The notes under the pieces are model-generated. The model had not been told where the DNA came from. It was given only the letters and a program-made list of their open reading frames with translations, and did no database searches. Source: a virus. Taken from it: a stretch of 64,000 nucleotides of DNA. Made by a program: the position numbers and the translations under genes. Of this stretch, positions 1,544-61,335 are shown one piece after another (position 1 is the stretch's first letter; each line of letters opens with the position of its first letter). Where the stretch lies: IMG/VR virus record IMGVR_UViG_3300045988_142996, positions 1 to 64,000 of that record; one strand, written 5' to 3'.

Positions 1544-1572
1544 TCCATAATAGAGCAAGGTATTTTCGCGTC
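1544..1572 (-). promoter_or_regulatory. Class-1 promoter-like motif, copy A
   Basis: Minus strand reads GACGCGAAAATACCTTGCTCTATTATGGAAG. It is separated from its presumed gene by the IS110 insertion. Confidence 0.5.
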
Positions 1573-2885: not shown

Positions 2886-2900
2886 CAGTCATACCACCTT

Positions 2901-2929
2901 TCATAAAGGTAGCTGAATTTTTCGCGTCA
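2901..2929 (-). promoter_or_regulatory. Class-1 promoter-like motif, copy C
   Basis: Minus strand reads TGACGCGAAAAATTCAGCTACCTTTATGAAAGG, immediately after terminator 2931-2967. Confidence 0.55.
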
Positions 2930-3320: not shown

Positions 3321-3350
3321 TCCATAAAGGTATCTGAATTTTTCGCGTCA
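3321..3350 (-). promoter_or_regulatory. Class-1 promoter-like motif, copy D
   Basis: Minus strand reads TGACGCGAAAAATTCAGATACCTTTATGGAA. The TGA is the stop codon of 3348..3761. Confidence 0.55.
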
Positions 3351-24065: not shown

Positions 24066-24524
24066 TTAAACCAGCATGCTACGATCATAGCGTTCGCTGG
24101 TTACTTTCATAACTGCCGAGATTGCTGTAGCGGCCATTCCTTTTTGAATCACTTGAGAATCAACAATGTTTTTTCCAATTTTTGTCACGGCTCCATAGTT
24201 ATTGTAGAGCGTATTGATGGTTCCAAGTGCCGTTGCTGCTGTTCCTGCAATCCCGATTGCCTGCTTAATCCTATCTGGTTTTGCAATCAAGGATTCATAC
24301 TGTTTTTCTTTTTGCAAACGGTTGATTTTTGCATTAAGCTCCGAATCGCTCAATTCTCTGACGCTCTTTTTCTCGTGTGCGTGGGTATAGTCAGGGTGGT
24401 CATTCTGCTGATATCTCTTTTTGCCTTCTGCTGTTAAGCTGCCATCCTTATTCTGATAGCGTCGGGCACCCCACTTCTGACCTTTGATGCCCCAATGATA
24501 AAGTTCATCATTATATATGGTCAT
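24066..24524 (-). CDS. Hypothetical protein with an N-terminal ELYHWGIKGQKWGARRYQ motif (152 aa)
   Basis: RBS AAAGGAGGTGG lies upstream of MTIYNDELYHWGIKGQKWGARR. The C-terminal part is Gly/Ala/Thr-rich and hydrophobic. Confidence 0.65.
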   Translation of the reverse strand: MTIYNDELYHWGIKGQKWGARRYQNKDGSLTAEGKKRYQQNDHPDYTHAHEKKSVRELSDSELNAKINRLQKEKQYESLIAKPDRIKQAIGIAGTAATALGTINTLYNNYGAVTKIGKNIVDSQVIQKGMAATAISAVMKVTSERYDRSMLV

Positions 24525-24593
24525 ATTCCACCTCCTTTGCCGATAAACAAAAAGCGCACCAGCAATGAAGCTGATGCGCTCTGTCAAAAGTAT

Positions 24594-25329: not shown

Positions 25330-26385
25330 ATGTCCGATTCCGAAATGCTTTCCACTCAGTCTTCCAGCTGCGAGATCACATTATGTGATATTCCACTGGA
25401 CTTCGGCGATGCAATGCGATTCCATAAAATTGAATTTCCTGAGCAAGCCGGACTTGCGGCCAACTTGCTTCTTCGGCTTGTTCCTGCTGAACTCGCAGTG
25501 GGGGCAGCATCGAGCACCTATGTTCTTCGGTTTCCAAAAGGTATTCAGGGTTCTCTTATGAACTTGCATCAGGGTGGACAGTCTACCGTTATGAAGGATG
25601 CTACCGGACATTTTGTAGGAACTGCATCGTTATATCGCACTGATCCGGTATCACTGGCAACTTTCCAGGTGTTTAGCATTGCATCTTTTGCGACAGGACA
25701 GTATTTTCTTGCAGACATCAGCTCAAAACTCACCGAAGTCAATAAGAAGCTAGATGACCTTCTTGCATTTCTGCAGACCTCAAAGCGCACAGAACTTCTC
25801 TCCGAGCTGACGTTTGTGAAATATGCATTGGCAAATTATTCAACGATTATGCTTAATGATGCTCAGTGCATTGCAACGATTGGAAATCTTCAGCGTGCAA
25901 AAACCAAAGCGATTGCTGATATAGAGTTTTATACCGAGCAGCTCGAGAGTGCAGTCGCTGGCAAGTCGAATGAGAGCCAAGCTCAAATTGTTTTGCAGAA
26001 TAAGCAGGGGGTTGATCTCGCCTCTCAACTTTATGCTATCAGCGGAATTATGGAAACCTACTATTCACAAAATTGGAACGAGTCCTATCTTGCAAATATC
26101 AAAGCGGATGCCAAACCTCTTTTCGCTCTTACGCAAAACCGCATGATTGGTGCTTTGAGAACATTCTCTGATAAGGTGACCAAAGAGCTTGAGGCCCGGA
26201 AGAAAAATCCTCTTACTAAAAACGAGGTTTCCAAAAAAGAGTGCGAAGTTCTGCGAGTATGTGACGCTCTAAATTCTCAAGCTGAATCTCCGCTTCTTAT
26301 TTTGATGACGGATGCTCTGAATAAGCCTTCAAGGGAAACAGAGCTTTATCTTCGTCCAGACGGTAGTGTCTACCAAAAGATTTAA
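25330..26385 (+). CDS. Unknown 351-aa protein (first gene of the opposite-strand accessory cassette)
   Basis: A strong RBS GAGGAGG-N7-ATG. The N-terminal third looks beta-rich and the C-terminal two thirds are long helices. No family recognised by eye. Confidence 0.85.
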   Translation: MSDSEMLSTQSSSCEITLCDIPLDFGDAMRFHKIEFPEQAGLAANLLLRLVPAELAVGAASSTYVLRFPKGIQGSLMNLHQGGQSTVMKDATGHFVGTASLYRTDPVSLATFQVFSIASFATGQYFLADISSKLTEVNKKLDDLLAFLQTSKRTELLSELTFVKYALANYSTIMLNDAQCIATIGNLQRAKTKAIADIEFYTEQLESAVAGKSNESQAQIVLQNKQGVDLASQLYAISGIMETYYSQNWNESYLANIKADAKPLFALTQNRMIGALRTFSDKVTKELEARKKNPLTKNEVSKKECEVLRVCDALNSQAESPLLILMTDALNKPSRETELYLRPDGSVYQKI

Positions 26386-26417: not shown

Positions 26418-26951
26418 ATGACTGTCGTTTGTCCCAGCTGCGGAAAGAAACTTCAAGTTCTCGATGACAAACCAACGAATGGAAAATGCGGAAGTTGCGG
26501 TGTCTCTTTCACCGTTGAGTACACGGCTGACGAAACCGCCATTGTTTCAGTCAAGACAGAAAAGACATTTTGGGAAAAACATCCTAAAATAGCTAAGGGC
26601 TTCGCAGCTGTATTGGGAGTTGGCTTTTTAGCCGGTGTGACTTGGCTTGCCGTCAAACCTAAAATCGACGAGTTCGCCAATGATTCTCCCATAGTAGAAG
26701 ACAATCAGTCTGATACAGCCCCCACTGCCACTTGCGTTGAAGTTAATAATGACAAGGCGCAGGATGATGCCACTTATGAGCAAAAAGAAATTCCTGTAAG
26801 CGGTGGCAAAGTGAAACTATCCGGAAATCGTCATGCATCTCAAAAGAAACGTGAAACAGCTGCTGAAAATGGTTATGCAGATTTAGCACCCGATGAAACC
26901 TGGCGTGTTCCGTCAACGAGGGTTATTGAAACCCCAGTCAAAGAATCTTGA
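26418..26951 (+). CDS. Zinc-ribbon protein with one TM helix (177 aa)
   Basis: CPSCGKK...CGSCG ribbon, TM segment GFAAVLGVGFLAGVTWLAV, and an acidic/polar tail. RBS AAAGGAG lies before the ATG at 26418 (the track start at 26391 is a GTG). Its stop abuts the TerL stop. Confidence 0.75.
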   Translation: MTVVCPSCGKKLQVLDDKPTNGKCGSCGVSFTVEYTADETAIVSVKTEKTFWEKHPKIAKGFAAVLGVGFLAGVTWLAVKPKIDEFANDSPIVEDNQSDTAPTATCVEVNNDKAQDDATYEQKEIPVSGGKVKLSGNRHASQKKRETAAENGYADLAPDETWRVPSTRVIETPVKES

Positions 26952-28697
26952 TCACTCAAACGCATCCCGGTTATTCTTATAAGCTACATACGCATCCATC
27001 ATAGCGGCAACCGCATCGATCTTCTGATCATACCTCTGTTTCAGAAGCTTGCGGTTGCCGTTTGTGTCTTCCAGGGTAATGCAGTTGCCCATAGCAAATT
27101 GCATCAGTTGCTCGTCAAACAGCAGTTTTCGCTGTTCGCTCAGCTTCTTCAGCTCGCCCAGCGGCACGCTCTCTGTCTTTGCGCCCTGGATCACCTTCTC
27201 GATGGCATACTCGCCGTTCTCTCTGGCCCATCGTTCCACAAAGTCCTTTGCGTTATAGGGGTCGTAGCCGAAAGACCGTACGTCGTACCCGCTGTTCTCG
27301 ATAAAGTGGTCAAGGTCGTCGTACACTTCCATCATGTCCAGCACGGTGCCTTCCAGCACCACAAGTGTTCCCTCCCGCATGAACTCGTCATACTTCTGCC
27401 GCATTGCAATGGGCAGCTTCGAGAGGGTGTAGCTCGTAATGTAGTCCCTCGTCTTCACGCCGAAATATCCGTGCTCCATCGGGAACAGGAAGGTAAACGC
27501 GCAAAAGTCGTCGCCCTGGCTGAGGTCTGCGCCCATGCTGCACGCCATCTGCCAGAAGTCCCGGTGCCGGTGCGGCAGGGTCTCCTCGTAGGGGAAGAAG
27601 TAGGTGTAACCCTCCATCGGGATGCCGAAGCGCTTTGCCAGGATGTCATTCCGGCTGGCAGGAGCCTTCTCGGCGCGTTCAACGTCCAGCTGGTAGGCTT
27701 CGTAGCTCACTGTGGCTCCCAGGTTCGGGTTCGCCTTCACCCACATGCTGGGGTCATTTACCTCGTCGATGCTGTCCAGCTTGTAGTACCAGATGGACAC
27801 ATGCGGGTTCACATAGTCGCCCTTCAGGATGCTCATCAATTCCATTTTGATGTCGTCACCGCAGCCGTTGCGCACCGTGCCCTCGCTGCTGGTGGCTACG
27901 ATCAGGTAATCCTCCACCTTGCAGCTACCCTGCTCGATAGCGCCAATGGGGTCTTCCCGGATGGGGCACGAGAGCCATTCATCCACTGTGGCCACCTTGT
28001 CTCTCCGTCCCTGCAGCTTGTCGATGCTCATGGGGCGGATTTCCAAAAGGCTGTTGGTCAGGAAGTTCTCGATGCCCTTCTTCGTGCTGGCCAGCTTCAC
28101 CCGCGCCGACTGGGAGCCGGTAGTGTTCTGCATGCTGCCTTCGGTCATAAAACGGTACAGCGGACCGCGGCTCCGCGCCAGTGCCGTGCGGATGGGGCTC
28201 AGCACCTCTTCCGCCTGCTTCATGGTGGGAGCCGTCGTGATCTGTTGCGTCGTGTGTCCGTCCACTGCAAGGAAGTATTGCTGGATGCAGCTGTCGTAGA
28301 TGCTCTTTGCCGCGCCTCGTGCCACGATCAGATACTGCTTGCGGACAAGGCGGTGCTTGATGCGCTTCTGGATGTACCTGCCGCCATGGCCGTCGGGGTT
28401 GGGCTTGTAGATGGTGCGTTCTTCAAAGTAGTACCATCCGAAGATTTCCTCCGCCCATAGCTTGAAGGTGTCCAGCAACTTCATGTCACTGCCGTCGGTC
28501 AGGGTCAGTTCCCGTTCACAGAACTTCACAAAGCCATCCATGGCCTTGTCGTCGTAGTAGATACCCGGATTTGCGATAAGATCATCGATCCGGTTCATCT
28601 CCATGGAGATTTCCCTGCAGACAGGAATTTCGCCTCGCAGCACGGCCTCCCGGAAACGGCCGTAATATTTTGGCGTAGCCGTGTTCGAGAGTGCCAT
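26952..28697 (-). CDS. Terminase large subunit
   Basis: A 581-aa protein with the Terminase_1-like layout: an ATPase region (YLIVARGAAKSIYDS) and a C-terminal nuclease region. It is the only terminase-sized ATPase in the genome. Confidence 0.8.
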   Translation of the reverse strand: MALSNTATPKYYGRFREAVLRGEIPVCREISMEMNRIDDLIANPGIYYDDKAMDGFVKFCERELTLTDGSDMKLLDTFKLWAEEIFGWYYFEERTIYKPNPDGHGGRYIQKRIKHRLVRKQYLIVARGAAKSIYDSCIQQYFLAVDGHTTQQITTAPTMKQAEEVLSPIRTALARSRGPLYRFMTEGSMQNTTGSQSARVKLASTKKGIENFLTNSLLEIRPMSIDKLQGRRDKVATVDEWLSCPIREDPIGAIEQGSCKVEDYLIVATSSEGTVRNGCGDDIKMELMSILKGDYVNPHVSIWYYKLDSIDEVNDPSMWVKANPNLGATVSYEAYQLDVERAEKAPASRNDILAKRFGIPMEGYTYFFPYEETLPHRHRDFWQMACSMGADLSQGDDFCAFTFLFPMEHGYFGVKTRDYITSYTLSKLPIAMRQKYDEFMREGTLVVLEGTVLDMMEVYDDLDHFIENSGYDVRSFGYDPYNAKDFVERWARENGEYAIEKVIQGAKTESVPLGELKKLSEQRKLLFDEQLMQFAMGNCITLEDTNGNRKLLKQRYDQKIDAVAAMMDAYVAYKNNRDAFE

Positions 28698-33427: not shown

Positions 33428-33768
33428 CTAACTTCCTCCTTATCGCATTCGGTGTACAGCCGCCATTCCAGCTCGCTGATCATGCTCTTGGTCGCATCCA
33501 TCACGCTGCTGGACTGAGGAGGATCGAACAGCAGACGAACTTTCATTGCCACGTAGCTTTTCACAGCTTCGATGTCAGCTTTGTTCTTACAGAAATCACT
33601 CCAGGTCGCCGTGGCGTCAACGATACCAAAACCCTCCTGCGGTCCTACGCCCATTTGACGAAGGATCATCAGCACGCTGTTGATGTGCATGATAAGGTCG
33701 GTATCAAAGGCCGTGTACTCCTCGGTCAGCCCGAGCAGCTTCTTCACTGAGGTCAGGATACTGTCCAT
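33415..33768 (-). CDS. Head-tail connector-like protein (gp6 / Gp19-Gp15-Gp42 family-like), 117 aa
   Basis: SVKKLLGLTEEYTAFDTDLIMHINSVLMILRQMGV matches the vK..LGI....FD.dLi..In pattern. Confidence 0.5.
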   Translation of the reverse strand: MDSILTSVKKLLGLTEEYTAFDTDLIMHINSVLMILRQMGVGPQEGFGIVDATATWSDFCKNKADIEAVKSYVAMKVRLLFDPPQSSSVMDATKSMISELEWRLYTECDKEEVRCGN

Positions 33769-33783
33769 TTTGATTTATCTCCT

Positions 33784-35048: not shown

Positions 35049-35133
35049 GGGTTTTCATTCCTTTCGCAAGGGTTTTGGGCCGAACTGCCCTTGATTCTGT
35101 TTTGTTATGGCGGCTTCTACAGCACTTATAGAG

Positions 35134-35288
35134 CTTTTGTAAGGGCTTATGAGAGCTGCTTGAGAAAATCTGTGAAAACGATGCCTGCAAAGCATTGAAA
35201 GGAGAAATTTTGTTAAGCAAAAGGAGGTTAAAGTCTGAGAACCCATCATAGGAGGTTGTGTCCACTATCTCATAAGCCCTTACAAAAG
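35134..35288. repeat. Perfect 20-bp inverted repeat separated by 115 bp
   Basis: cttttgtaagggcttatgag (35134-35153) is the exact reverse complement of ctcataagcccttacaaaag (35269-35288). The palindrome gattgctcagcaatc follows at about 35293. Confidence 0.85.
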
Positions 35289-35410
35289 CCCTGATTGCTC
35301 AGCAATCAAAGCCTTTTATCCCCGGAGATTGATGCTGAGCCTTGGTCTACACCCCAAAGCCCAAATATCAATTTTACCCCCGGGGAAATATTAAAGACCG
35401 GCGCGATTTA

Positions 35411-35442
35411 GGGAGGGGGTGTGTTTTTCGGGACCCCCTCCC
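35411..35442. other. GC-rich perfect 10-bp hairpin
   Basis: gggagggggt-N12-accccctccc. There is no T-run on either strand. It lies just downstream of the last early/middle gene. Confidence 0.8.
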
Positions 35443-35459
35443 CTGTCTAATGGATAGAT

Positions 35460-35729
35460 TTACGCCGCAGTCGTGTCATTTTCTGCATCGGGGAGGGTCT
35501 TTTTGACCTTCCGGTACAGGTTTAAAGGATCATCACGAATGATCTGATCGATTGTACGCTCAATTTCATAGGCGTTTTCGTTATCCGTGAGCTGATCCGA
35601 GGTATAAGAGAGCCGTGCGAGGAGTCCACAGGAGTTATAACCGTGGTCGCAGTCAAAACGATACCACTGATCGAACTGGTCGTGCGGATCGTAAGGATTA
35701 TCGACCGTGGTAATGAAACAACGAACCAT
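35460..35729 (-). CDS. Hypothetical protein (89 aa)
   Basis: ORF from the track, following the 920-aa gene. No family recognised. Confidence 0.55.
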   Translation of the reverse strand: MVRCFITTVDNPYDPHDQFDQWYRFDCDHGYNSCGLLARLSYTSDQLTDNENAYEIERTIDQIIRDDPLNLYRKVKKTLPDAENDTTAA

Positions 35730-35750: not shown

Positions 35751-38513
35751 TTATTTCTTCAGTGCATCATAAATCGTGGATTTCGGAACATTACAGGCTT
35801 CAGCAACTTCGGCATAGCTGTAACCCATGTCAAGCATTGCTCGTGCTTTGCTCAATTTGGCATTAGAAAGCGTTGTCGATGCTTTCGGCATTGCGCGTTT
35901 GATGATTTCAGAAGAATCAGAACTGTTCAGAAACTTCGTCAACATCGAATCCGAAATTGCATGATTCTGAACAGCTTCCCATTCCTTGTCCGTAAAGACG
36001 ATCTTGGAGTTCCGACCGCTTGCACCAACAGAATCTCGTGCACGCTGCATCTCAACAGCAGAGATCTTCTTGATCTCTTTCTTGTCGGCTTTGCGATCAA
36101 GGCCTTGTGCTTCGATTTTTGCATTGATGTTGGCGTTTGCAATAATCATGGCACGCCGTTCTTTTGGCTTGTTGGTCAGAACTGCCTGATACTTTGCTTT
36201 CAAGGACTCAACCTCTGCCGCATACTTCTTGGCCGCTGCCGGATCACGCCGGATGCCCTTCATATTGACGGCTTCCTTGCGTGCCTGATTAGTCAGAGCC
36301 TTCAGGCCATTGGCAAAGTCTGCGTACAACTCCTCCTGCTTTGTGCCAGAGGACAAGGTATGGACATCTTTGATCATAGAGATGCGACTTACCTCATCTT
36401 CAGCCACATGCACATTACCCTTCTCGTCCTTGTAGGTACGGCCACTCTCCTTGTAGATGAGTTCGCCGGTCTCCTTGTCGATACGTGTGCTGCCACGACG
36501 CTCAGGAACACGGACGGTCTGCTTGCGACGGGACAGCAGCGTGGATGCACCACCGTACTTCGTATTGCCGTCTTCATCCACCCGGATCTGGTACTTCTGC
36601 TTCAGCTCCTGGATGCCGTTTTCACGCTCAGACCTCTTGTAGTCCAGGCCATGCTTCTCAGCATCAATGACAACCATAGAGTGGCGCACTGCTCGCTCCA
36701 GATCTTCTGGCGTTGCACCACGCAAGGTCATGTCCGTAATCAGGTTCGAGATAATTCCCATCTCTTTCTGCTTCTCATCCTTCTTCATGAGACGAACATT
36801 GTTGGGGTTGCCTTCCGGAACAGAGTAGGCAGTCTTGGGGTCGAAGTTCTTCAGACCAGGAAGCGGATTCGTTGAGTTGATACGAACCTTATCGCTCATC
36901 GGGATAGCCATAACGGTATCGCCATCAAAGTCTGCACCAGACAGCCGCTCTGCGACCTTCGCGTTGATGCCGATGGCGTCCTGAATCGCGCCCAAATTGC
37001 GCTTACCACTGAGGTTCTTGTTGTTGACAGTCACAACGGGAATCTCAAATGTGCCTGCATGCGGATAACGAATCAGTGCAAGCTGTGTTCCGTTCTCGTA
37101 TGTAGGGCAATAGGCTTCTTTCTCACTGATGTTATTCAGCGGAAGGATGACCTTCGTTGACTGACCGGGAAATGCAGACGCTTTCAGGGTCATGGACGTG
37201 CCTTCACACTGGTCAGCAAAGTCCATCAGCATTTTTTTCTTGACAGTCGGGTTCGTGTAATGCATGATCTCATCGTACTCGGCCTTATAGTCAGCCATAG
37301 TGAGGTCAAGCTGGCGTTTGATGAGCGGAACGGGCTGCTTGGACAGGAACTGCGAAGAAACATTCTTCGACATCGTGTCCCAGTCGCCTTCTTCTTTCAG
37401 CTTATTGATGGGAGAAAGATGCTCTTTGCCGTCGGCACCAATATAAGTGCTCTGGCCGTTCGCTTTGATGGCTGCACCGAACGGGTTATCCGGATCATCC
37501 TTGATGGGCTTGAAGACCTTCATCTTGGGTGTACCAGAAGGCTTATTGGTATTAAAGACAATATCAACACCCTTCGGCAGGTCATCAGAATATACGGCCA
37601 TGCCCTTCAGGTAGTGGCTGTCATCCACCATGATACGAACCTGCGCATAATGGGAATTGCCCAAATCCAAATCAGGAACGCCGCGGCGAATCTCCATAAC
37701 ACCGTCTTTTGCAAGGCCGCCTTCGTCGCCATAGCGCACCGCCACACGATCAGAGCTCATGCTCACAGGACGCTGTAGTTTTTTGAAGCTGTCTCCACCA
37801 TCGTCGGAATGATAGTCGCCAAGGGACTGAATCTCACTCTGATGCTTGTAGGCATAGCTCTGATCGAACTCAGGCTTGCCCAGAACGGTGATATTTGTCT
37901 GCTGACGAGGATTGGTCGGCTGCTTGATGCCGACACCATAGCGCTTATAGCCGTATTCCGCTTCCAGAATATAAACAGCCTCATCCAGCTTGCCTTCCGA
38001 GACGCCAAGCGTAAGGTTGGAACCTTCGGAAATATCAATCATGCCTTTCTTGTCAACTTCCTTCTTCAGGACGTCAGCAATCTTTTCAGCCTGATCTTTC
38101 TTGGTTCCAACGCCATTCTGGTACATGGAGCGGACCGTCGATTCGGACAGGTTCAACTTCTGGCCGATTTCAGTCCAGCCTTTGCCATCTTCTTTCAGTG
38201 CACGAATCTGATCCCACTGCAGCGCTTTACGGTCATGGCCGGCTTTGGCTCTTGCCACACGAAACTCGCTGGCACCCAGCTTGTACTCATCGGGCAGAGT
38301 CGCATTGATGGCCTCAAGGATCTCATTTTCACTCATGCCCTGAGTCTTCAGCTTATCGATTCGAGAAATAAAATCGCCCGAATGCTGGTAAGGCGTCTCG
38401 CCACTACCCCAGGGATAACGGCCAGAATGACGCTTGGTGCCGTAATGCTCCAGCGTATCGCCGCCGTATTCAATACCAAAATAGCTCGAAATATCTTTTT
38501 CAACTGGATTCAT
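35751..38513 (-). CDS. 920-aa protein with a two-barrel RNA-polymerase-type catalytic signature (YonO/RdRP-like?) and HTH domains
   Basis: LALIRYPHAGTFEIP...AERLSGADFDGDTVMAIPM. The DFDGD is at nt 36918-36932, verified by hand. There are two HTH-like segments and an N-terminal HYGTKRHSGRYPWGSG motif. Confidence 0.5.
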   Translation of the reverse strand: MNPVEKDISSYFGIEYGGDTLEHYGTKRHSGRYPWGSGETPYQHSGDFISRIDKLKTQGMSENEILEAINATLPDEYKLGASEFRVARAKAGHDRKALQWDQIRALKEDGKGWTEIGQKLNLSESTVRSMYQNGVGTKKDQAEKIADVLKKEVDKKGMIDISEGSNLTLGVSEGKLDEAVYILEAEYGYKRYGVGIKQPTNPRQQTNITVLGKPEFDQSYAYKHQSEIQSLGDYHSDDGGDSFKKLQRPVSMSSDRVAVRYGDEGGLAKDGVMEIRRGVPDLDLGNSHYAQVRIMVDDSHYLKGMAVYSDDLPKGVDIVFNTNKPSGTPKMKVFKPIKDDPDNPFGAAIKANGQSTYIGADGKEHLSPINKLKEEGDWDTMSKNVSSQFLSKQPVPLIKRQLDLTMADYKAEYDEIMHYTNPTVKKKMLMDFADQCEGTSMTLKASAFPGQSTKVILPLNNISEKEAYCPTYENGTQLALIRYPHAGTFEIPVVTVNNKNLSGKRNLGAIQDAIGINAKVAERLSGADFDGDTVMAIPMSDKVRINSTNPLPGLKNFDPKTAYSVPEGNPNNVRLMKKDEKQKEMGIISNLITDMTLRGATPEDLERAVRHSMVVIDAEKHGLDYKRSERENGIQELKQKYQIRVDEDGNTKYGGASTLLSRRKQTVRVPERRGSTRIDKETGELIYKESGRTYKDEKGNVHVAEDEVSRISMIKDVHTLSSGTKQEELYADFANGLKALTNQARKEAVNMKGIRRDPAAAKKYAAEVESLKAKYQAVLTNKPKERRAMIIANANINAKIEAQGLDRKADKKEIKKISAVEMQRARDSVGASGRNSKIVFTDKEWEAVQNHAISDSMLTKFLNSSDSSEIIKRAMPKASTTLSNAKLSKARAMLDMGYSYAEVAEACNVPKSTIYDALKK

Positions 38514-38514: not shown

Positions 38515-39069
38515 TCAGCACCCCATCTTCAGCTTTGCAATAATCGGATCAAACTCACGGATCTTCTCCATCACAACGTTGACATCATCCGCCTCAGGTG
38601 TGGCGATAATAATATCATCAGACTGATAGATGCGATTCTCGATCTGAATTTTCTCCGGCTTCACACGATATTCCAGACAGAACAGAGCATCGTAAATCAG
38701 CAGCTGTTCCATATGCGCCGGAATCACCCCCGTTTTAAGGTCGTGGATCCGAAGAATATCATCGCGGAAACAAATCGAGTCTGCTGTCCCAAAGCAATTC
38801 TCAGAATAATAGAGCACCTGCTCAGGGGTCATGCGGAATCCAATGGCGTCGTTGACATAACTGTTCAACGTCTTCTTCGAGCGCGGCAGCTTCTGGCCAA
38901 GAGAAATGCACTTTGCTGCAAACTCGTGCAGTTCGGTGCCTTTCTGCGCAGCCATGAAGCTGGTATAGGCCGCTGCAATTTTCTCGGGATCGTAATTGAT
39001 CCAATGATACTTACTAGCGCCGAGAAATGCGTGTTGGCCTGTCAGACGCGAATGATCGTTGAAGGTCAT
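38515..39069 (-). CDS. PD-(D/E)XK nuclease (DUF2800/Cas4-like, without a Cys cluster)
   Basis: GASKYH..., GTELHEF, GTADSICF...LRIHDLKTGVIPAHMEQLLIYDAL matches D...(D/E)xK plus the QxxxY pattern. Confidence 0.6.
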   Translation of the reverse strand: MTFNDHSRLTGQHAFLGASKYHWINYDPEKIAAAYTSFMAAQKGTELHEFAAKCISLGQKLPRSKKTLNSYVNDAIGFRMTPEQVLYYSENCFGTADSICFRDDILRIHDLKTGVIPAHMEQLLIYDALFCLEYRVKPEKIQIENRIYQSDDIIIATPEADDVNVVMEKIREFDPIIAKLKMGC

Positions 39070-39331
39070 CCAAAATCTCCTCCTTATTTTCCGGGTAAAT
39101 GAACGCAGCGTAGCTCATCCGGTTCATGAGATCAACGTAGTAATCTTGATTCGGACGATGCGGTGCATTTGCAGAGCGTTTGCCTTCAAGCGCTGCCCAC
39201 TTGTCTCCGCACAAAACCAAGAGATCAGGCATTCCCTGAATCTCGTTTGGATCAATGTGCAGAACAATGCAGCCCGGAAAGCGCTCTTTGAGTTCTCTTA
39301 CCAGGTTTGTTTTGAATCGGTTCTCCAGCAT
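39014..39331 (-). CDS. VRR-NUC-type nuclease
   Basis: GMPDLLVLCGDKWAALEGKR (PD...ExK). The start was set at MLENRF behind GGAGGAG. Confidence 0.65.
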   Translation of the reverse strand: MLENRFKTNLVRELKERFPGCIVLHIDPNEIQGMPDLLVLCGDKWAALEGKRSANAPHRPNQDYYVDLMNRMSYAAFIYPENKEEILDDLQRSFASDRPTRISRR

Positions 39332-39384
39332 AAAATCTCCTCCAAAAAGAAAAAGAGCAGCGTGCAAAGACACACTCTCTCCTC

Positions 39385-39413
39385 TTCATAAAAGAGCATG
39401 TATTTTACGCGTT
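39385..39413 (-). promoter_or_regulatory. Class-1 promoter-like motif, copy L (variant CGCGTAAAAT)
   Basis: Minus strand reads AACGCGTAAAATACATGCTCTTTTATGAAGAGG. Confidence 0.4.
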
Positions 39414-39419
39414 TGTTTT

Positions 39420-39445
39420 TGTCGGTAGATGTCGGTTTTTGTCGG
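39420..39445. repeat. Three TGTCGG direct repeats at an exact 10-bp period (0A-box-like)
   Basis: tgtcgg occurs at 39420, 39430 and 39440. The third reads TTTGTCGGAA, one mismatch from the extended Spo0A box TTTGTCGAAA. Confidence 0.6.
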
Positions 39446-39454
39446 AAAACTTGC

Positions 39455-39484
39455 AAAAGAAAAAGACGCAGATTGCTCTGCGTC
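39455..39484 (-). terminator. Rho-independent terminator
   Basis: Minus strand reads GACGCAG-AGCAAT-CTGCGTC followed by TTTTTCTTTT. Confidence 0.7.
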
Positions 39485-39507
39485 TTCGTCGTGTTTATTT
39501 GAGAATA

Positions 39508-39870
39508 TCAATCCTCATGGGTATGTTCTGCATAGAAATAGTACCAATCCGGAACACCAGCCAGAAGCCGTCTTCCATCATCGTACTCAAACTTACCGTA
39601 GTCTTCGTTCAGTTCAAGGTTAGCGGACTCGTATTCATCAAGCTCGATGACCTGATCGATTTCGTCCTCCGTTTTCGTGATGTTGCAGGGCGGACAAGCC
39701 CAATATCCGGGAACTTCTTCTATCATGTTTCGTCCGCAGGTGCACACCGGAACCTTTGTGTGAATCTCGCGGTACCGGTTCGCATAACAGTGGACAACAT
39801 TCCCTGCTGCATCAGTGGTGGTCCATTCTTCAAAGCCATTGTCATTGATAAAGCGGTCCATGTAAGCCAT
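39508..39870 (-). CDS. Hypothetical Cys-rich protein (120 aa)
   Basis: It contains VPVCTCGRNMIEEVPGYWACPPCN and an acidic C-terminus. Confidence 0.55.
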   Translation of the reverse strand: MAYMDRFINDNGFEEWTTTDAAGNVVHCYANRYREIHTKVPVCTCGRNMIEEVPGYWACPPCNITKTEDEIDQVIELDEYESANLELNEDYGKFEYDDGRRLLAGVPDWYYFYAEHTHED

Positions 39871-39918
39871 CTTTACTACCTCATAAGCATCTAATCGGTG
39901 TGTGCATCATTTAAATCA

Positions 39919-39947
39919 AGTATACAACGCTGGTTGGGTTCTTACAA
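39919..39947 (-). promoter_or_regulatory. Sigma-A-like promoter for the 39870-to-35460 operon
   Basis: Minus strand reads TTGTAA (39947-39942), a 17-nt spacer, then TATACT (39924-39919), about 48 nt upstream of the ATG at 39870. Confidence 0.5.
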
Positions 39948-40002
39948 GATTTTCGCCTTGAACTTTTCGTTAATTTGGGTCGTTTTTCGTCTCTGCCCAA
40001 AA

Positions 40003-40301
40003 GCCCACTTTTATTTTCTACTTATATATATTTTTTTCATTTTTAATAAATAAATAAGAAAAAAAGTGGGCAAGTGGGCAAAATGGCTTTTTCTTCCAAA
40101 AATATAACGTATTTACGCAATATTTTATCCAAAATTCGTGCCCACTTTTGGTTTTAAAAGTGGGCAGAAAGTGGGCTTTTGGCCAGAAATTGTGAATATT
40201 TTGTGAACAAACGGTCATTTTCGTCTATTCTAGAATAGAATTTCACGTCTCTGACACACAAAACCCAAAACAAAAGTGGGCACGAATTTCAAAAGTGGGC
40301 A
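40003..40301. repeat. Iteron array: at least 8 copies of (A)AGTGGGC(A) in both orientations in an AT-rich, non-coding 440 bp
   Basis: Copies lie at 40003-10 (reverse), 40065-72, 40073-80, 40139-48 (reverse), 40157-66, 40168-77, 40272-82 and 40291-301. Confidence 0.85.
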
Positions 40302-40758: not shown

Positions 40759-41097
40759 TTATTTCTCCAAACCCATCAAATATTCCGCACTCCGATAGAC
40801 AAAATATCGCGGTGCAGGCGGTCGAACAAGTGCTTTTCTCGTGACATCTTCCATGCCAGATTGCTTTGTCCGCCACCCAATCGAGATGCAATGCCGGATA
40901 TTCCGCTCCATTCTTTCCGGATTTGCCGCGTATTTTTGCCCGAGTTGTTCGTAATAAATGTACATGTGCGCCGGCTGTTCATCCTCCAGCAAAGCATCCG
41001 TGACCATGTCGATCAGCTCACCAAGCGGATTAAATCCCATCAACCATGGTTCAATGCCGACGCTTTTCAGATAATCATAGGTTCGAGGTCGCATCAA
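40759..41097 (-). CDS. Spo0A C-terminal (DNA-binding) domain-like protein (112 aa)
   Basis: LGQKYAANPERMERNIRHCISIGW compares with the Spo0A sequence [24 protein letters not shown]. Confidence 0.55.
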   Translation of the reverse strand: MMRPRTYDYLKSVGIEPWLMGFNPLGELIDMVTDALLEDEQPAHMYIYYEQLGQKYAANPERMERNIRHCISIGWRTKQSGMEDVTRKALVRPPAPRYFVYRSAEYLMGLEK

Positions 41098-44777: not shown

Positions 44778-44806
44778 CTCATAAAGGAGACTGTTATTTT
44801 CGCGTT
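44778..44806 (-). promoter_or_regulatory. Class-1 promoter-like motif, copy E
   Basis: Minus strand reads AACGCGAAAATAACAGTCTCCTTTATGAGG. It overlaps the stop of 44794..44955. Confidence 0.45.
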
Positions 44807-48196: not shown

Positions 48197-48226
48197 TTCA
48201 TAAAAGACTATGATTTTTTCGCGTCA
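48197..48226 (-). promoter_or_regulatory. Class-1 promoter-like motif, copy F
   Basis: Minus strand reads TGACGCGAAAAAATCATAGTCTTTTATGAAAGG. It overlaps the last codons of 48208..48372. Confidence 0.5.
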
Positions 48227-58023: not shown

Positions 58024-58052
58024 TCCATAAAGCAGGGTGAATTTTTCGCGTC
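58024..58052 (-). promoter_or_regulatory. Class-1 promoter-like motif, copy G
   Basis: Minus strand reads GACGCGAAAAATTCACCCTGCTTTATGGAAC. Confidence 0.55.
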
Positions 58053-59150: not shown

Positions 59151-59179
59151 TCCATAATGCAGAGAGATTTTTTCGCGTC
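59151..59179 (-). promoter_or_regulatory. Class-1 promoter-like motif, copy H
   Basis: Minus strand reads GACGCGAAAAAATCTCTCTGCATTATGGAAG. Confidence 0.55.
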
Positions 59180-59366: not shown

Positions 59367-59380
59367 AAGTCTCACCTCCT

Positions 59381-59409
59381 TCATAATGGCCCTGGTATTT
59401 TTCGCGTCA
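59381..59409 (-). promoter_or_regulatory. Class-1 promoter-like motif, copy I
   Basis: Minus strand reads TGACGCGAAAAATACCAGGGCCATTATGAAGG. The TGA is the stop of 59407..60156. Confidence 0.5.
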
Positions 59410-61030: not shown

Positions 61031-61059
61031 TTCATAAAGCATCGTGATTTTTTCGCGTT
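61031..61059 (-). promoter_or_regulatory. Class-1 promoter-like motif, copy J
   Basis: Minus strand reads AACGCGAAAAAATCACGATGCTTTATGAAGG. Confidence 0.55.
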
Positions 61060-61306: not shown

Positions 61307-61335
61307 CCCATAAGACGAGGAGAATTTTTCGCGTA
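61307..61335 (-). promoter_or_regulatory. Class-1 promoter-like motif, copy K
   Basis: Minus strand reads TACGCGAAAAATTCTCCTCGTCTTATGGGAT. Confidence 0.5.

What the first reader, a model, noticed from the sequence alone, without database searches (positions are those of the whole stretch)
35751..38513. 920-aa protein with an RNAP beta-prime / RdRP-type RxPHxG...ADFDGD barrel signature: candidate YonO-like single-subunit RNA polymerase fused to HTH domains
Residues 480-540 read LALIRYPHAGTFEIPVVTVNN...AIGINAKVAERLSGADFDGDTVMAIPM. The DFDGD is at nt 36918-36932 and RYPHAG at nt 37053-37070, both checked codon by codon. The order and spacing match the Mg-binding double-psi beta-barrel of multisubunit RNAP beta-prime (NRAPTLHRLGIQAFEP...NADFDGDQMAVHVP). 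They also match the YonO / eukaryotic-RdRP clade (SGGDxDGD). The protein carries two HTH-like segments: aa ~108-132 GKGWTEIGQKLNLSESTVRSMYQ, and the C-terminal MGYSYAEVAEACNVPKSTIYDALKK. It has an N-terminal HYGTKRHSGRYPWGSG motif related to motifs in two proteins beside the portal gene. It is the second-to-last gene of the operon that ends just upstream of the packaging/late region. The genome also carries two repeated motif families that do not look like sigma-A promoters and could be its promoters. This domain combination is not one I recognise as described.
Basis: partly seen in the sequence, partly recalled or inferred. Interest (0 to 1): 0.85.

Follow-up and report, generated by a model that had tools for sequence, protein, structure and literature searches.

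The report
Phage RNA polymerase with built-in HTHs
The 920-aa gene really does encode a single-chain "two-barrel" RNA polymerase fused to DNA-binding helix-turn-helix domains, but it belongs to a large phage family already catalogued (never tested biochemically), and here it comes with a conserved, non-bacterial-looking promoter motif that is probably its target.

Summary
Observation confirmed. ORF 35751-38513(-) encodes 920 aa, with RYPHAG and DFDGD at exactly the stated nucleotides and HTH domains at both ends.

Interpretation supported. AlphaFold models hit only two-barrel RNA polymerases (QDE-1, RDR2, Thermus phage gp62/gp64, AR9 beta'). R482, P484 and D528/D530/D532 are invariant in 98 diverse homologues.

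The domain combination is not new.
- The protein matches phrog_4291 end to end.
- It is 77% identical to the FP_oengus "putative RNA polymerase".
- Its N- and C-terminal HTHs, DxDGD motif and RdRP-like core were described by Koert et al. 2021.
- The phage 1706 homologue was listed among YonO-like proteins in 2010.
- No experimental study of the family was found.

It is not a YonO family member by sequence.

New here:
- A strand-specific 28-nt motif (ACGCGAAAAA-N12-TATGRA) occurs 11 times. It lies before early genes and the polymerase operon itself and is absent from the late region.
- It sits about 900 nt upstream of the polymerase in most of 80 related viral contigs, and related motifs occur in Arthrobacter, Lactococcus and Streptomyces relatives.
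- Ribosome-binding sites abut the box, which argues against a sigma-70 -10 element.

Best model: a phage DNA-dependent transcriptase that reads these promoters through its HTH modules, possibly delivered in the virion.

The parts
35751..38513 (-). Gene for the 920-aa HTH-fused single-subunit two-barrel RNA polymerase (phrog_4291 family)
   Evidence: ORF. phrog_4291 matches at E=0, 1180 bits, aa 19-919. 77% identical to FP_oengus AUV56548.1 'putative RNA polymerase'. AF2 models with Foldseek hits to QDE-1, RDR2 and gp62/gp64.
38400..38459 (-). Conserved N-terminal short linear motif (aa 19-38, DTLEHYGTKRHSGRYPWGSG) inside a predicted disordered segment (aa 1-45)
   Evidence: Near-invariant L21, H23, Y24, G25, R28, S30, G31, R32, Y33, P34, W35, G36, S37, G38 in 98 homologues. 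pLDDT <50 for aa 1-45. The [DE]xLxHYG[VIT] skeleton is shared only with DUF7211 proteins near terminase and portal genes in four genomes.
38115..38372 (-). N-terminal helical DNA-binding region (aa 48-133), including the sigma-70 region-4-like HTH at aa 109-133
   Evidence: Pfam Sigma70_r4_2 E 1.1e-6 above cut-off, Sigma70_r4 E 4.5e-4. Helices 48-57, 62-71, 81-108, 113-120 and 124-132 in the model.
37389..37745 (-). First beta-barrel module (aa 257-375), the beta/Rpb2-like DPBB-B
   Evidence: Strands 257-260, 272-276, 289-296, 300-309, 318-321, 354-358 and 364-374. Invariant D270, G271, R276, R293, K303, G304, N321, N323, K324, K335. Covered by the ~510-column Foldseek alignments to QDE-1. Residue-by-residue equivalence to Rpb2 D837/K979/K987 was not verified.
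37188..37331 (-). Helical hairpin connector between the barrels (aa 395-442), the clamp-connector equivalent
   Evidence: Helices 395-417 and 422-442. [quoted passage not shown]
36900..37160 (-). Second beta-barrel module (aa 452-538), the beta'/Rpb1-like catalytic DPBB-A. It holds RYPHAG (37053-37070) and the Mg-binding DFDGD (36918-36932).
   Evidence: Sequence. R482, P484, H485, G487 and S525-D532 invariant. BLASTP aligns these with YonO RSPH...DNDGD. A weak profile hit to AR9 beta' falls at this segment.
36651..36782 (-). Long conserved helical hairpin after the catalytic barrel (aa 578-621), a candidate bridge-helix / trigger-loop region
   Evidence: Helices 578-597 and 602-621. Invariant M585, G586, S589, N590, L591, D594, M595, A608, H611, S612, M613, V615, I616, D617, K620, H621. 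The assignment is by position relative to QDE-1 and gp64 and is an inference.
35757..35864 (-). C-terminal HTH (aa 884-919)
   Evidence: Pfam HTH_23 E 1.3e-8, HTH_38, HTH_28 and HTH_7, all above cut-off. Helices 884-895, 900-907 and 911-919.
35460..35729 (-). 89-aa conserved partner ORF immediately downstream (phrog_4303, function unknown)
   Evidence: phrog_4303 E 1.3e-31. The same small ORF follows the polymerase in FP_oengus, 1706, Dynamite and HotFries. It is the 'conserved hypothetical protein' of Koert et al..
35411..35443 (-). GC-rich hairpin ending the polymerase operon
   Evidence: -23.9 kcal/mol, z -3.35. No U-tract follows, so terminator function is inferred only.
38515..39069 (-). 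Cas4/RecB-like exonuclease, the conserved upstream operon partner
   Evidence: phrog_3953 E 5.7e-79. The same neighbour is present in FP_oengus (cas4 family nuclease), Dynamite, HotFries and Gordonia phages.
39014..39373 (-). 119-aa endonuclease (VRR-Nuc-like), first gene of the operon
   Evidence: phrog_93 E 4.2e-14. The syntenic gene in HotFries is annotated as a VRR-Nuc domain protein.
39385..39412 (-). Class-1 promoter-like motif directly upstream of the polymerase operon (ACGCGTAAAATACATGCTCTTTTATGAA, then GAGGAG and a GTG start)
   Evidence: The same motif lies at about -900 to -1000 nt from the polymerase start in most of 80 related viral contigs (77 of 95 matches between -750 and -1500; 95 matches on the coding strand against 2 on the other). 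It is the top hit of the Dynamite promoter profile in the window.
61307..61334 (-). Class-1 motif copy (early region)
61031..61058 (-). Class-1 motif copy (early region)
59380..59407 (-). Class-1 motif copy (early region); the Shine-Dalgarno sequence overlaps the box
59151..59178 (-). Class-1 motif copy (early region)
58024..58051 (-). Class-1 motif copy (early region)
48197..48224 (-). Class-1 motif copy (replication module); the Shine-Dalgarno sequence abuts the box
44778..44805 (-). Class-1 motif copy (replication / nucleotide-metabolism module)
   Evidence: conserved in FP_oengus at 22539
3321..3348 (-). Class-1 motif copy (downstream of the tail genes)
2900..2927 (-). Class-1 motif copy; the Shine-Dalgarno sequence abuts the box
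1544..1571 (-). Class-1 motif copy (repeated at 63666-63693 because the window wraps around)
40003..40300 (.). Array of GCCCACTT(TT) repeats in the AT-rich gap upstream of the polymerase operon (8 of the window's 10 copies). Candidate operator or origin; its link to the polymerase is unproven.
   Evidence: A related GCCCACTTTT / GTGGCCAAAA array sits at the same place in Arthrobacter phage Dynamite, and GGCCAAAAACCCACTT in FP_oengus. Absent in HotFries.

Best explanation
The gene encodes the phage's own DNA-templated RNA polymerase. It is a single chain whose catalytic core is two double-psi beta-barrels. The beta-like barrel is aa 257-375. The beta'-like barrel is aa 452-538, with RxPH and the Mg-binding DFDGD loop. 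A bridge-helix-like hairpin follows.

On both ends the core carries helix-turn-helix modules. One is sigma-70 region-4-like (aa 109-133) and one is a resolvase/homeodomain-like HTH (aa 884-919). I infer that these HTHs replace a sigma factor. They would dock the enzyme on the upstream half (ACGCGAAAAA) of a 28-nt bipartite 'class-1' promoter, while the core opens and starts at or just before the downstream TTTATGRA box.

That promoter precedes the early and middle genes and the operon of endonuclease, Cas4-like exonuclease, polymerase and 89-aa ORF. The enzyme would therefore drive the non-structural half of the genome and reinforce its own synthesis.

Because its own operon carries the same promoter, the first molecules most likely arrive inside the virion. 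The conserved disordered N-terminal peptide would then be the packaging or ejection signal. In a prophage, the first molecules would instead come from a weak host-RNAP promoter upstream.

Shown: the fold, the invariant catalytic residues, the HTH domains, the synteny, and the existence, strand bias, placement and conservation of the motif.

Inferred: polymerase activity, DNA template, HTH-promoter contact and virion delivery.

My sub-probabilities:
- Active template-dependent RNA polymerase: about 0.85.
- Class-1 motif is its promoter: about 0.55-0.6.
- Virion-delivered: about 0.4.

The overall confidence given (0.55) is for the statement up to and including 'transcribes the class-1 promoters'.
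For: Fold.
- Foldseek hits at E <= 1e-3 are exclusively two-barrel RNAPs.
- The models are confident (pLDDT 80.8 and 88.4).

Catalytic residues.
- R482, P484, D528, D530 and D532 are invariant, as are several Lys, Asp and Arg residues in the first barrel.
- This holds across 98 homologues down to 36% identity.
- The family spans 2301 clusters at 50% identity.

HTH domains. They score above Pfam cut-offs and are retained in essentially all homologues.

Precedent. Related single-chain two-barrel enzymes are proven DNA-dependent phage transcriptases: YonO (PMC5467207) and P23-45 gp64/gp96 (PMC10770324).

Class-1 motif in the window.
- 11 copies against 0.8 expected, all on the coding strand.
- All lie between genes and often just after terminator hairpins.
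- None lies in the roughly 32-kb late region.

Class-1 motif in relatives.
- It is conserved in FP_oengus.
- In 80 viral contigs with 47-83% identical polymerases there are 95 coding-strand matches against 2 on the other strand. 77 of them lie 750-1500 nt upstream of the polymerase start.
- Each relative examined has its own long motif of the same build in the same genome region (Dynamite, 1706, HotFries).
- Profiles cross-detect one another by rank. Window to Dynamite: the top 7 hits are all Dynamite sites. 1706 to Dynamite: the top 5. 1706 to HotFries: the top 2, at 11.2 bits against a shuffle maximum of 7.1.

Not sigma-70-like.
- There is no conserved -35 element.
- The box lacks the -7 T.
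- In most unique instances a GGAG-type ribosome-binding site starts within -3 to +6 nt of the box end, with a start codon 5-12 nt further on. A start site 7 nt past the box would remove the ribosome-binding site.

Virion delivery.
- The phage 1706 homologue ORF75 is annotated 'structural protein' although it lies in the replication module.
- 1706 ORF7, also 'structural', carries the related DUF7211 motif twice.
- A PHROG sharing that motif is labelled virion structural protein.
Against: - No biochemical or transcript data exist for any member of this family.
- Sequence methods alone do not place the core. Pfam gives no RdRP or RNAP hit, and PDB sequence and profile searches find nothing significant.
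- The motif is linked to the polymerase only by co-occurrence.
- A pooled promoter profile from three other phages does not find the window's sites above shuffles. Window/FP_oengus profiles do not cross-detect 1706 or HotFries sites.
- In Dynamite, 1706 and HotFries the downstream box is a good sigma-A -10 (TATAAT or TATAGT), so host RNAP plus a conserved phage factor remains possible.
- The closest relative, FP_oengus, encodes an integrase, and the family occurs on Faecalibacterium chromosomes, so these phages are temperate. A prophage cannot rely on virion-borne enzyme, which requires an extra host-dependent entry point. The TTGTAA-17-TATACT match at 39947-39919 is only a 9/12 consensus match.
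- The 'structural protein' label for 1706 ORF75 is read from the GenBank record. The paper (Garneau 2008) was not available.
- The gene sits in the replication module, not among the structural genes.
Confidence: 0.55

Rival explanations
1. YonO-style late-gene polymerase. Host RNAP, alone or with a phage factor, reads the class-1 promoters and so makes the early and middle genes, including this polymerase. The polymerase then transcribes only the roughly 32-kb structural and lysis block, starting in the 35049-35459 gap or by reading through it.
For: - The gene is the penultimate gene before the late block, just as yonO lies immediately upstream of the SPbeta late operon it transcribes.
- The late region has no class-1 motif, so some other promoter type must serve it.
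- The downstream box is a canonical -10 in three relatives.
- A temperate lifestyle fits a host-driven early programme.
Against: - The window and FP_oengus box (TATGRA) lacks the -7 T, and there is no -35 element.
- Ribosome-binding sites abut the box, which is incompatible with a sigma-70 start site.
- No conserved candidate late promoter was found. TCAAAATGGA has no extended context and often overlaps start codons or lies inside ORFs.
- A 25-28-nt invariant motif per genome is unusual for host promoters.
Confidence: 0.25
2. Replication-linked RNA synthesis. The enzyme makes primer or origin-activating transcripts at the GCCCACTT repeat array just upstream of its operon, working with the neighbouring nucleases. 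General transcription would not be its role.
For: - The gene closes the replication module, next to VRR-Nuc and Cas4/RecB nucleases and a helicase, in all relatives.
- An iteron-like array at 40003-40300 is shared with an Arthrobacter phage.
- QDE-1 makes RNA on single-stranded DNA (PMC9508822 abstract).
Against: - The phage already encodes a 1331-aa primase-polymerase.
- The array is missing in HotFries, which keeps the polymerase.
- This model does not explain the dispersed class-1 motif.
Confidence: 0.08
3. A true RNA-dependent RNA polymerase, as the PHROG and RefSeq name says. It would, for example, make double-stranded RNA or copy a phage transcript.
For: - The nearest solved structures are the eukaryotic RdRPs QDE-1 and RDR2.
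- phrog_4291 and RefSeq records use this name.
- Published HHpred hit to PF05183.
Against: - The name is transferred from the Pfam family, not tested.
- The phage has a double-stranded DNA genome and no known RNA stage.
- The characterised phage members of the clade (YonO, gp64, gp96) are DNA-dependent, and QDE-1 itself also uses DNA templates.
- Multiple DNA-binding HTH domains point to double-stranded DNA targets.
Confidence: 0.05
4. An HTH DNA-binding regulator with an inactive, relic polymerase core. This is how most actinobacteriophage records annotate it ('helix-turn-helix DNA-binding domain protein').
For: - Pfam sees only HTH domains.
- Most of the 251 phage records use this label.
Against: - The metal-binding triad, the RxPH motif and dozens of core residues are invariant across hosts from two phyla and 2301 clusters at 50% identity. 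That is not expected for a dead enzyme.
- The core is the best-predicted and most conserved part of the protein.
Confidence: 0.03

Closest known systems
Faecalibacterium phage FP_oengus AUV56548.1 'putative RNA polymerase' / phrog_4291 ('RNA-dependent RNA polymerase'). This is the signature protein of the Actinobacteria-Firmicutes phage supercluster (Koert et al., bioRxiv 10.1101/842583). The family also includes Lactococcus phage 1706 ORF75.
   Same: - 77% identity over the full length, and an end-to-end HMM match.
- Same architecture: N-terminal peptide, N-terminal HTHs, two-barrel core, C-terminal HTH.
[quoted passage not shown]
- The window protein is a member of this family.
   Different: Nothing essential. 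The window phage is a different species (77% at protein level). It carries an IS110-type transposase where FP_oengus has an integrase.
YonO of Bacillus prophage SPbeta (single-peptide DNA-dependent RNAP; Forrest et al. 2017)
   Same: - A single chain of about 100 kDa.
- RxPH...DxDGD motifs with the same spacing.
- Encoded by a temperate siphophage just upstream of the late genes.
- Proven DNA-dependent and processive.
   Different: - No significant sequence similarity (BLASTP E 0.15; hhalign probability 1%).
- No comparison of the HTH ends with YonO was made here, beyond the absence of any significant alignment outside the catalytic motifs.
- The YonO promoter is a single site and remains undefined.
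QDE-1 (Neurospora) and plant RDR2, the eukaryotic cell-encoded RdRPs (Pfam PF05183)
   Same: - Best structural matches: E 2e-10, TM 0.47-0.49 over about 510 columns covering both barrels, the connector and the bridge region.
- Same barrel order, beta-like then beta'-like.
   Different: - 11-14% identity.
- The Pfam model does not hit at E <= 1.
- They are eukaryotic silencing enzymes without HTH ends and have different N-terminal domains.
Thermus phage P23-45 gp64 / P74-26 gp62 non-virion RNAP, and the tape-measure-fused virion RNAP gp96 (Chaban et al. 2024, PMC10770324)
   Same: - Minimal single-subunit two-barrel phage transcriptases.
- Structural hits 8f5m and 8f72 at E 6e-7 and 8h2m at E 4e-5.
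- Each recognises its own conserved promoter motif found upstream of early genes.
   Different: - About 12% identity.
- About 600 aa; that paper's text does not mention helix-turn-helix domains.
- The virion enzyme there is fused to the tape measure, not free-standing.
crAss-like phage phi14:2 gp66 virion RNAP
   Same: - Two-barrel, QDE-1-like, packaged in the virion and injected to transcribe early genes (as cited). This is the functional model for the virion-delivery sub-hypothesis.
- crAss-like proteins appear among the BFVD hits.
   Different: - It did not appear among the top 50 listed PDB matches for either model.
- It lies in the structural block, according to the literature.
- Packaging of the present protein is only hinted at by the 1706 annotation.
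T7-type single-subunit RNAP promoters (functional analogy only)
   Same: A long, nearly invariant, strand-specific motif per genome that runs up to the start site and drifts together with the polymerase among relatives.
   Different: An unrelated right-hand polymerase fold, with no HTH modules.

Membership tests
Two-barrel (double-psi beta-barrel) RNA polymerase superfamily | Catalytic barrel with the invariant Asp triad DxDGD (Rpb1 D481/483/485 equivalents) | tested here: met
   D528, F529, D530, G531, D532 are invariant in 98 homologues. The segment aligns to YonO DNDGD and weakly to AR9 beta'.
Two-barrel (double-psi beta-barrel) RNA polymerase superfamily | Invariant Arg and Pro upstream in the same barrel (Rpb1 R446, P448; listed in PMC2919709) | tested here: met
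   R482 and P484 are invariant, 46 residues before D528. They align to YonO RSP.
Two-barrel (double-psi beta-barrel) RNA polymerase superfamily | Second (beta/Rpb2-like) barrel carrying one invariant Asp and two invariant Lys | tested here: inconclusive
   A second beta-rich module (aa 257-375) is predicted with high confidence and is covered by the Foldseek alignments. D270, D317, K303, K324 and K335 are invariant.
Two-barrel (double-psi beta-barrel) RNA polymerase superfamily | Overall fold similarity to solved members | tested here: met
   All 24 PDB hits at E <= 1e-3 are two-barrel RNAPs. QDE-1 gives E 2e-10, probability 1.00 and TM 0.47-0.49.
Two-barrel (double-psi beta-barrel) RNA polymerase superfamily | Template-dependent RNA synthesis | not testable with these tools
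   Needs purified protein.
phrog_4291 / FP_oengus-1706-actinophage 'HTH + RdRP-like' family | Full-length profile match including both HTH ends | tested here: met
   E=0, 1180 bits, aa 19-919 against profile positions 10-906 of 909. 249 of 251 phage records cover >=80% of the query.
phrog_4291 / FP_oengus-1706-actinophage 'HTH + RdRP-like' family | Conserved gene neighbourhood: RecB/Cas4 exonuclease upstream, small conserved ORF downstream, end of the replication module next to the genome end or late genes | tested here: met
   26 of 80 viral contigs end <600 nt after the gene.
YonO family (SPbeta-like) | Detectable sequence homology to YonO | tested here: not met
   BLASTP E 0.15. hhalign of the 98-sequence profile against YonO gives probability 1%. 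Only the two catalytic motifs align.
YonO family (SPbeta-like) | Transcribes the phage late operon | not testable with these tools
   Needs a mutant plus RNA-seq.
Pfam RdRP (PF05183; QDE-1/RDR) | Match to the Pfam model above its gathering score | tested here: not met
   No PF05183 hit at E <= 1. A published HHpred probability of 95.7% exists for the family alignment.
Pfam RdRP (PF05183; QDE-1/RDR) | RNA-templated RNA synthesis | not testable with these tools
   Needs an enzyme assay.
Virion-packaged phage RNA polymerases (N4 vRNAP, crAss gp66, P23-45 gp96) | Protein present in purified virions | not testable with these tools
   Only indirect support. The 1706 ORF75 homologue is labelled 'structural protein' in GenBank, and the source paper is not held.
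Virion-packaged phage RNA polymerases (N4 vRNAP, crAss gp66, P23-45 gp96) | Gene located in, or fused to, the structural module | tested here: not met
   The gene closes the replication module. In the circular or concatemeric form it does directly precede the late genes.
Pfam DUF7211 (N-terminal HYGxKGMKWG peptide) | Match to the DUF7211 model | tested here: not met
   No hit at E <= 1 for the polymerase. The two portal-side ORFs do match (E 1.9e-10 and 2.4e-6). Only the [DE]xLxHYG[VIT]...WG skeleton is shared.

The most novel reading that the evidence does not exclude
The supercluster of siphophages infecting Actinobacteria and Firmicutes runs a self-contained transcription system. A two-barrel RNA polymerase has sigma-like HTH modules fused to it. 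It reads a conserved bipartite promoter (CGCR, A/T tract, CA, then TATRRW at the start site) without any sigma factor. It drives its own operon in a positive-feedback loop and is carried into the cell inside the capsid by a short N-terminal HYG...WG peptide, which it shares with other internal head proteins. In the temperate Faecalibacterium members, lysogeny would then be maintained largely by the absence of polymerase rather than by repressing each promoter.
Probability: 0.3. Interest if true: 0.75.

Novelty: new member of a known kind. Interest (0 to 1): 0.5.

Why it matters
Single-chain two-barrel RNA polymerases are thought to resemble the ancestor of all cellular RNA polymerases. Only a handful have been studied: YonO, crAss gp66, and P23-45 gp64 and gp96. 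How they find promoters is largely unknown.

This family is very large. It has 2301 clusters at 50% identity, is common in human-gut Faecalibacterium prophages, and occurs in hundreds of isolated, culturable actinobacteriophages and lactococcal phages.

It is the only family considered here in which the catalytic core is fused to recognisable DNA-binding domains. It now also has a clear candidate promoter. That makes 'how does a minimal two-barrel polymerase recognise a promoter without sigma?' directly testable in easy hosts such as Arthrobacter, Gordonia, Streptomyces and Lactococcus.

On the practical side, most database records label the protein as an 'HTH DNA-binding protein' or an 'RNA-dependent RNA polymerase'. 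Both labels are probably misleading.

Tried and rejected
1. Sequence-only placement of the core failed.
   - Pfam shows only HTHs.
   - phmmer and profile searches of the PDB found nothing significant. The best was AR9 beta' at E about 2.
   - hhalign against YonO failed.

2. The DUF7211 model does not hit the polymerase. An HMM of the polymerase N-terminus hits the terminase- and portal-side proteins only weakly (E 0.001-8). I therefore keep the relationship at pattern level.

3. I tested whether the HYG peptide is the prohead-protease cleavage site, by looking for it at the protease/capsid junction. The protease-capsid fusion proteins of all four phages lack it, so I dropped the idea.

4. 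TCAAAATGGA as a polymerase promoter.
   - It is enriched and strand-specific: 14 exact copies, mostly in the late region, and 7 in FP_oengus.
   - It has no extended conserved context, often contains the start codon, and lies inside ORFs such as the terminase and tape-measure genes.
   - The Dynamite counterpart TCAAAATAGGAGT sits 6-8 nt before start codons. It looks like a start-associated or translation-related element.
   - Left unexplained.

5. A pooled promoter profile from Dynamite, 1706 and HotFries did not recover the window's class-1 sites above shuffles. Only pairwise, rank-based cross-detection works, and not for window/FP_oengus against 1706 or HotFries.

6. The sigma-70 consensus scan around the gene gave 11 hits against 7.4 expected, which is not informative.

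7. Garneau et al. 2008 (phage 1706 proteomics) and Summer et al. 2011 (ReqiPoco6) could not be read.

8. The TGATATTT-type 9-mers are enriched on the coding strand in the window and in FP_oengus. I did not pursue them.

Full report
**The observation**

The ORF listing gives one ORF at 35751..38513 on the minus strand, ATG to stop, encoding 920 aa. It contains LALIRYPHAGTFEIPVVTVNN...AERLSGADFDGDTVMAIPM.
- Pfam confirms both HTH segments above the curated cut-offs: Sigma70_r4_2 at aa 109-133 and HTH_23, HTH_38, HTH_28 and HTH_7 at aa 885-920. Pfam reports nothing for the central 700 residues.
- The window itself wraps around: bases 1-1878 equal 62123-64000. It therefore holds one complete 62,122-bp phage genome.

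**What the protein is**

- PHROGs places the whole protein (aa 19-919) in phrog_4291, 'RNA-dependent RNA polymerase', with E=0 and 1180 bits.
- tblastn against isolated phages finds 251 records, 249 of them full-length. The best is Faecalibacterium phage FP_oengus at 77%, annotated 'putative RNA polymerase'. About 44% identical homologues follow in Arthrobacter, Gordonia, Streptomyces, Microbacterium, Curtobacterium and Rhodococcus phages, and 36-38% identical ones in Lactococcus phages 1706 and P078.
- The protein databases hold more than 8000 clusters at 90% identity, many on Faecalibacterium chromosomes and therefore prophages. An exhaustive HMMER scan finds 2301 clusters at 50% identity, 825 of them below 1e-30, and nearly all full-length.

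I aligned 98 non-redundant homologues drawn from three searches.
- R482, P484, H485, G487 and S525-G-A-D-F-D-G-D532 are invariant.
- So are a block in the upstream beta-rich region (D270, G271, R276, R293, K303, G304, N321, N323, K324, K335) and a block after the catalytic loop (M585...H621).

AlphaFold2 on this alignment gives pLDDT 80.8 and pTM 0.70. The model contains, in order:
- a disordered N-terminus (aa 1-45);
- a helical N-terminal region;
- two beta modules (aa 257-375 and 452-538) joined by a helical hairpin;
- a long helical hairpin (aa 578-621);
- a small beta domain;
- a helical C-terminus ending in the HTH.

Foldseek against the PDB returns QDE-1 (E 6e-8), RDR2 and Thermus phage P74-26 gp62 as the only hits at E <= 1e-3. 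RNA polymerase II Rpb1, bacterial beta' and AR9 beta' trail behind. BFVD returns a podovirus 'RdRP', a P23-45 protein and crAss-like proteins.

A second model of the core alone (aa 247-725) reaches pLDDT 88.4 and pTM 0.79. Its 24 PDB hits at E <= 1e-3 are all two-barrel RNA polymerases:
- QDE-1: E 2e-10, TM 0.47-0.49 over about 510 columns.
- RDR2.
- gp62 and gp64: E 6e-7.
- gp96.
- AR9 beta'.

It is not met.

**Relation to YonO**

I fetched yonO from SPbeta. BLASTP is not significant (E 0.15). Its best local alignment nevertheless pairs LIRYPH with ILRSPH and ADFDGD with FDNDGD at the same spacing. hhalign of the family profile against YonO fails. The protein therefore works like YonO but is not a YonO-family member by sequence. 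Structurally it is nearer to QDE-1 and RDR2 and to the Thermus phage non-virion enzyme.

**Is it already described?**

Yes.
- Ruprich-Robert & Thuriaux (NAR 2010, PMC2919709) listed the phage 1706 protein as one of five YonO-like families sharing the eight invariant residues of two-barrel polymerases.
- Koert et al. (bioRxiv 10.1101/842583) singled out exactly this 'HTH domain-containing protein' as the signature of a supercluster. The supercluster joins actinobacteriophages with the Lactococcus and Faecalibacterium phages. They reported an HHpred hit to PF05183 (95.7%), HTHs at both ends and the DxDGD loop.
- RefSeq and PHROGs call it an RNA-dependent RNA polymerase. Most SEA-PHAGES records call it an HTH DNA-binding protein.
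- I found no experimental work on any member. Koert et al. do not mention promoters.

**Genomic setting**

All genes but a few run on the minus strand. Reading in the direction of transcription, the order is:
- small early genes (about 62-55 kb);
- a 1331-aa primase-polymerase (50303-54298), a helicase and ThyX;
- a Spo0A_C-like DNA-binding protein (40759-41097);
- an AT-rich gap;
- a 120-aa ORF, a 119-aa endonuclease and a Cas4-like exonuclease (38515-39069);
- the polymerase;
- the 89-aa phrog_4303 ORF;
- a GC hairpin and about 410 nt of non-coding DNA;
- HNH, connector, tail-fibre-like genes and TerL (26952-28697);
- two DUF7211 ORFs, the portal, a protease-capsid fusion, and the tail genes.

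The same order holds in FP_oengus, 1706, Arthrobacter phage Dynamite and Streptomyces phage HotFries. In the linear actinophage genomes the polymerase is the penultimate gene before the right end. 26 of 80 metagenomic viral contigs end within 600 nt of it.

**The promoter-like motif**

Counting k-mers on the coding strand brings out ACGCGAAAA: 11 matches in the window against 0.8 expected (one of them a wrap-around duplicate), none on the other strand. With one variant at 39412 there are 11 sites of the form ACGCG(A/T)AAAA-N12-TATGRA at a fixed spacing.
- All sites lie between genes, often just after a terminator hairpin.
- They lie in the early region, the replication region and the 1.5-3.4 kb region.
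- One lies immediately before the endonuclease-exonuclease-polymerase operon.
- None lies in the roughly 32 kb of late genes.

FP_oengus has 12 copies, one of them before its polymerase operon. I also fetched 80 viral contigs whose polymerases are 47-83% identical. A relaxed pattern matches 95 times on the coding strand and twice on the other. 77 of the matches sit 750-1500 nt upstream of the polymerase start.

More distant relatives each have a long motif of the same build in the same genome region:
- Dynamite: tCGCGTAAAtTACAaGGGcTATAAT.
- 1706: caCAtgTTTTACAta..CTATAGTAGAAAG.
- HotFries: TCGCA.GtTTT.C.tGc.tTATAaTGAGACCCCTAC.

Cross-searching with profile HMMs gave a mixed result.
- The window profile's top 7 hits in Dynamite are all Dynamite sites.
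- The 1706 profile's top 5 hits in Dynamite and top 2 in HotFries are real sites (11.2 bits against a shuffle maximum of 7.1).
- The Dynamite profile's best hit in the window is a class-1 site.
- Window/FP_oengus against 1706 or HotFries fails. A pooled three-phage profile does not beat shuffles in the window.

The homology is therefore a chain, not a uniform family.

**Why this is probably not a sigma-A promoter in the window's branch**

- There is no conserved -35 hexamer upstream.
- The box TATGRA lacks the -7 T.
- A GGAG-type ribosome-binding site starts within -3 to +6 nt of the end of the box in 51 of 79 unique instances. A start codon follows 5-12 nt later.
- A sigma-70-type start about 7 nt past the box would cut off the ribosome-binding site. 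The start site must therefore lie at or before the box, as in promoters of single-subunit phage polymerases.

This last step is an inference from sequence, not a mapped 5' end. In the three more distant phages the box is a good -10 element, which keeps the host-polymerase alternative alive.

**The N-terminal peptide**

Residues 19-38 are almost invariant in the family and lie in a predicted disordered stretch. I searched with the pattern [DEQN]x[LIVM]xH[YWKRF]G[VIT]. On the coding strands of the window, FP_oengus, 1706 and Dynamite it hits only the polymerases and the DUF7211 proteins next to the terminase and portal genes. The DUF7211 proteins hit are:
- window ORFs 24801-25289 and 24066-24587;
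- the FP_oengus ORF at 40135;
- Dynamite gp7 (twice) and gp9;
- 1706 ORF7 (twice).

1706 ORF7 and ORF75, the polymerase homologue, are both labelled 'structural protein' in GenBank. ORF75 lies far from the structural module, so I take the label to reflect virion proteomics. I could not read the paper. This is the basis for the virion-delivery sub-hypothesis. It is suggestive only.

**Mechanism proposed, and rivals**

Best-supported model:
- The protein is an active DNA-templated two-barrel transcriptase.
- Its fused HTH modules, one of them sigma region-4-like, bind the upstream half of the class-1 promoter.
- It transcribes the early and middle genes and its own operon.
- The first molecules either arrive in the capsid or, in prophage induction, come from a weak host promoter in the gap at 39.9-40.3 kb.

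Rivals:
- A YonO-style late-gene polymerase made from host-read class-1 promoters (0.25).
- A replication-linked RNA synthase acting at the GCCCACTT array (0.08).
- A true RdRP (0.05).
- An inactive HTH regulator (0.03).

**Verdict**

- The thing itself is a new member (77% identity) of a catalogued but biochemically untouched family.
- The added value of this second look is the fold evidence, the correction that it is not YonO-family and not undescribed, and a concrete candidate promoter that makes the system testable.

Noticed in passing
window 1-1878 = 62123-64000: The window wraps around a 62,122-bp genome (100% identity over 1878 nt). It therefore contains one complete, circularly represented phage or prophage genome related to Faecalibacterium phage FP_oengus.
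   Followed up: yes
window 40003-40300 (both strands); L003 ~2700-3000; L005 ~26890-27100: An array of GCCCACTT(TT) repeats (8 of the window's 10 copies) lies in the AT-rich gap upstream of the polymerase operon. Arthrobacter phage Dynamite has GCCCACTTTT / AAAAGTGGGC / GTGGCCAAAA repeats at the syntenic spot, and FP_oengus has GGCCAAAAACCCACTT. HotFries lacks it. A non-coding motif shared across host phyla suggests a conserved phage DNA-binding protein, so it may be an origin or an operator.
   Followed up: partly
window, 14 exact copies on the minus strand between 1683 and 33773 (e.g. 33764-33773, 24026-24035, 20580-20589, 19225-19234): TCAAAATGGA is strongly enriched and strand-specific, mostly in the late region, with 7 copies in FP_oengus. 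It has no extended context, often contains the start ATG, and sometimes lies inside ORFs. Dynamite has TCAAAATAGGAGT five times, each 6-8 nt before a start codon. It looks like a start-associated or translation-linked element rather than a promoter. It remains unexplained.
   Followed up: partly
window 24801-25289(-) and 24066-24587(-): Two small ORFs between the terminase and portal genes carry the Pfam DUF7211 peptide (WHYGIKGMKWGVRR and YHWGIKGQKWGARR). The same peptide occurs once or twice in Dynamite gp7 and gp9 and in 1706 ORF7, a 'structural protein'. It may be a head-internal or portal-binding signal.
   Followed up: partly
window 135-1310(+) (= 62257-63432): This ORF is an IS110-family DEDD transposase (DEDD_Tnp_IS110 E 1e-46 plus Transposase_20). 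It lies on the opposite strand, where FP_oengus carries its integrase. It is either an insertion sequence in the phage or a transposase used for integration.
   Followed up: no
window 40759-41097(-): A 112-aa protein matches the Spo0A C-terminal DNA-binding domain (E 1e-9). It is encoded just upstream of the repeat array and the polymerase operon and could be a phage regulator acting there.
   Followed up: no
window 20947-22710(-): The capsid maturation protease and the major capsid protein are fused in one 587-aa ORF (phrog_3270). The same fusion was noted for Arthrobacter cluster AM/AU phages and is present in 1706 ORF10.
   Followed up: no
window 35460-35729(-): The 89-aa ORF after the polymerase (phrog_4303, no Pfam hit) is kept next to it in every relative examined. 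It is a candidate accessory factor of the polymerase.
   Followed up: no
window coding strand, e.g. 61382, 61120, 54331, 48924, 35371; FP_oengus: (A/T)TGATATTT-type 9-10-mers are over-represented on the coding strand only: 8-11 copies in the window and 10-12 in FP_oengus. They often lie between the class-1 box and the ribosome-binding site, or at ORF ends. Their function is unknown.
   Followed up: no
window 25330-26385(+): A 351-aa ORF lies on the opposite strand between TerL and the portal-side genes. It has no PHROG hit and only a sub-threshold Pfam match. FP_oengus has a reverse-strand ORF of similar size at the same position, 38952-40004.
   Followed up: no
L008 (Streptomyces phage HotFries) 18860-19000: In place of the GCCCACTT array, HotFries has an AT-rich stretch with near-palindromic AAAACTTTTTAAAAAAATTTTTTGG and AAACGTTTTTAAAAAAGTTTTTGC repeats, upstream of its nuclease-polymerase genes.
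   Followed up: no
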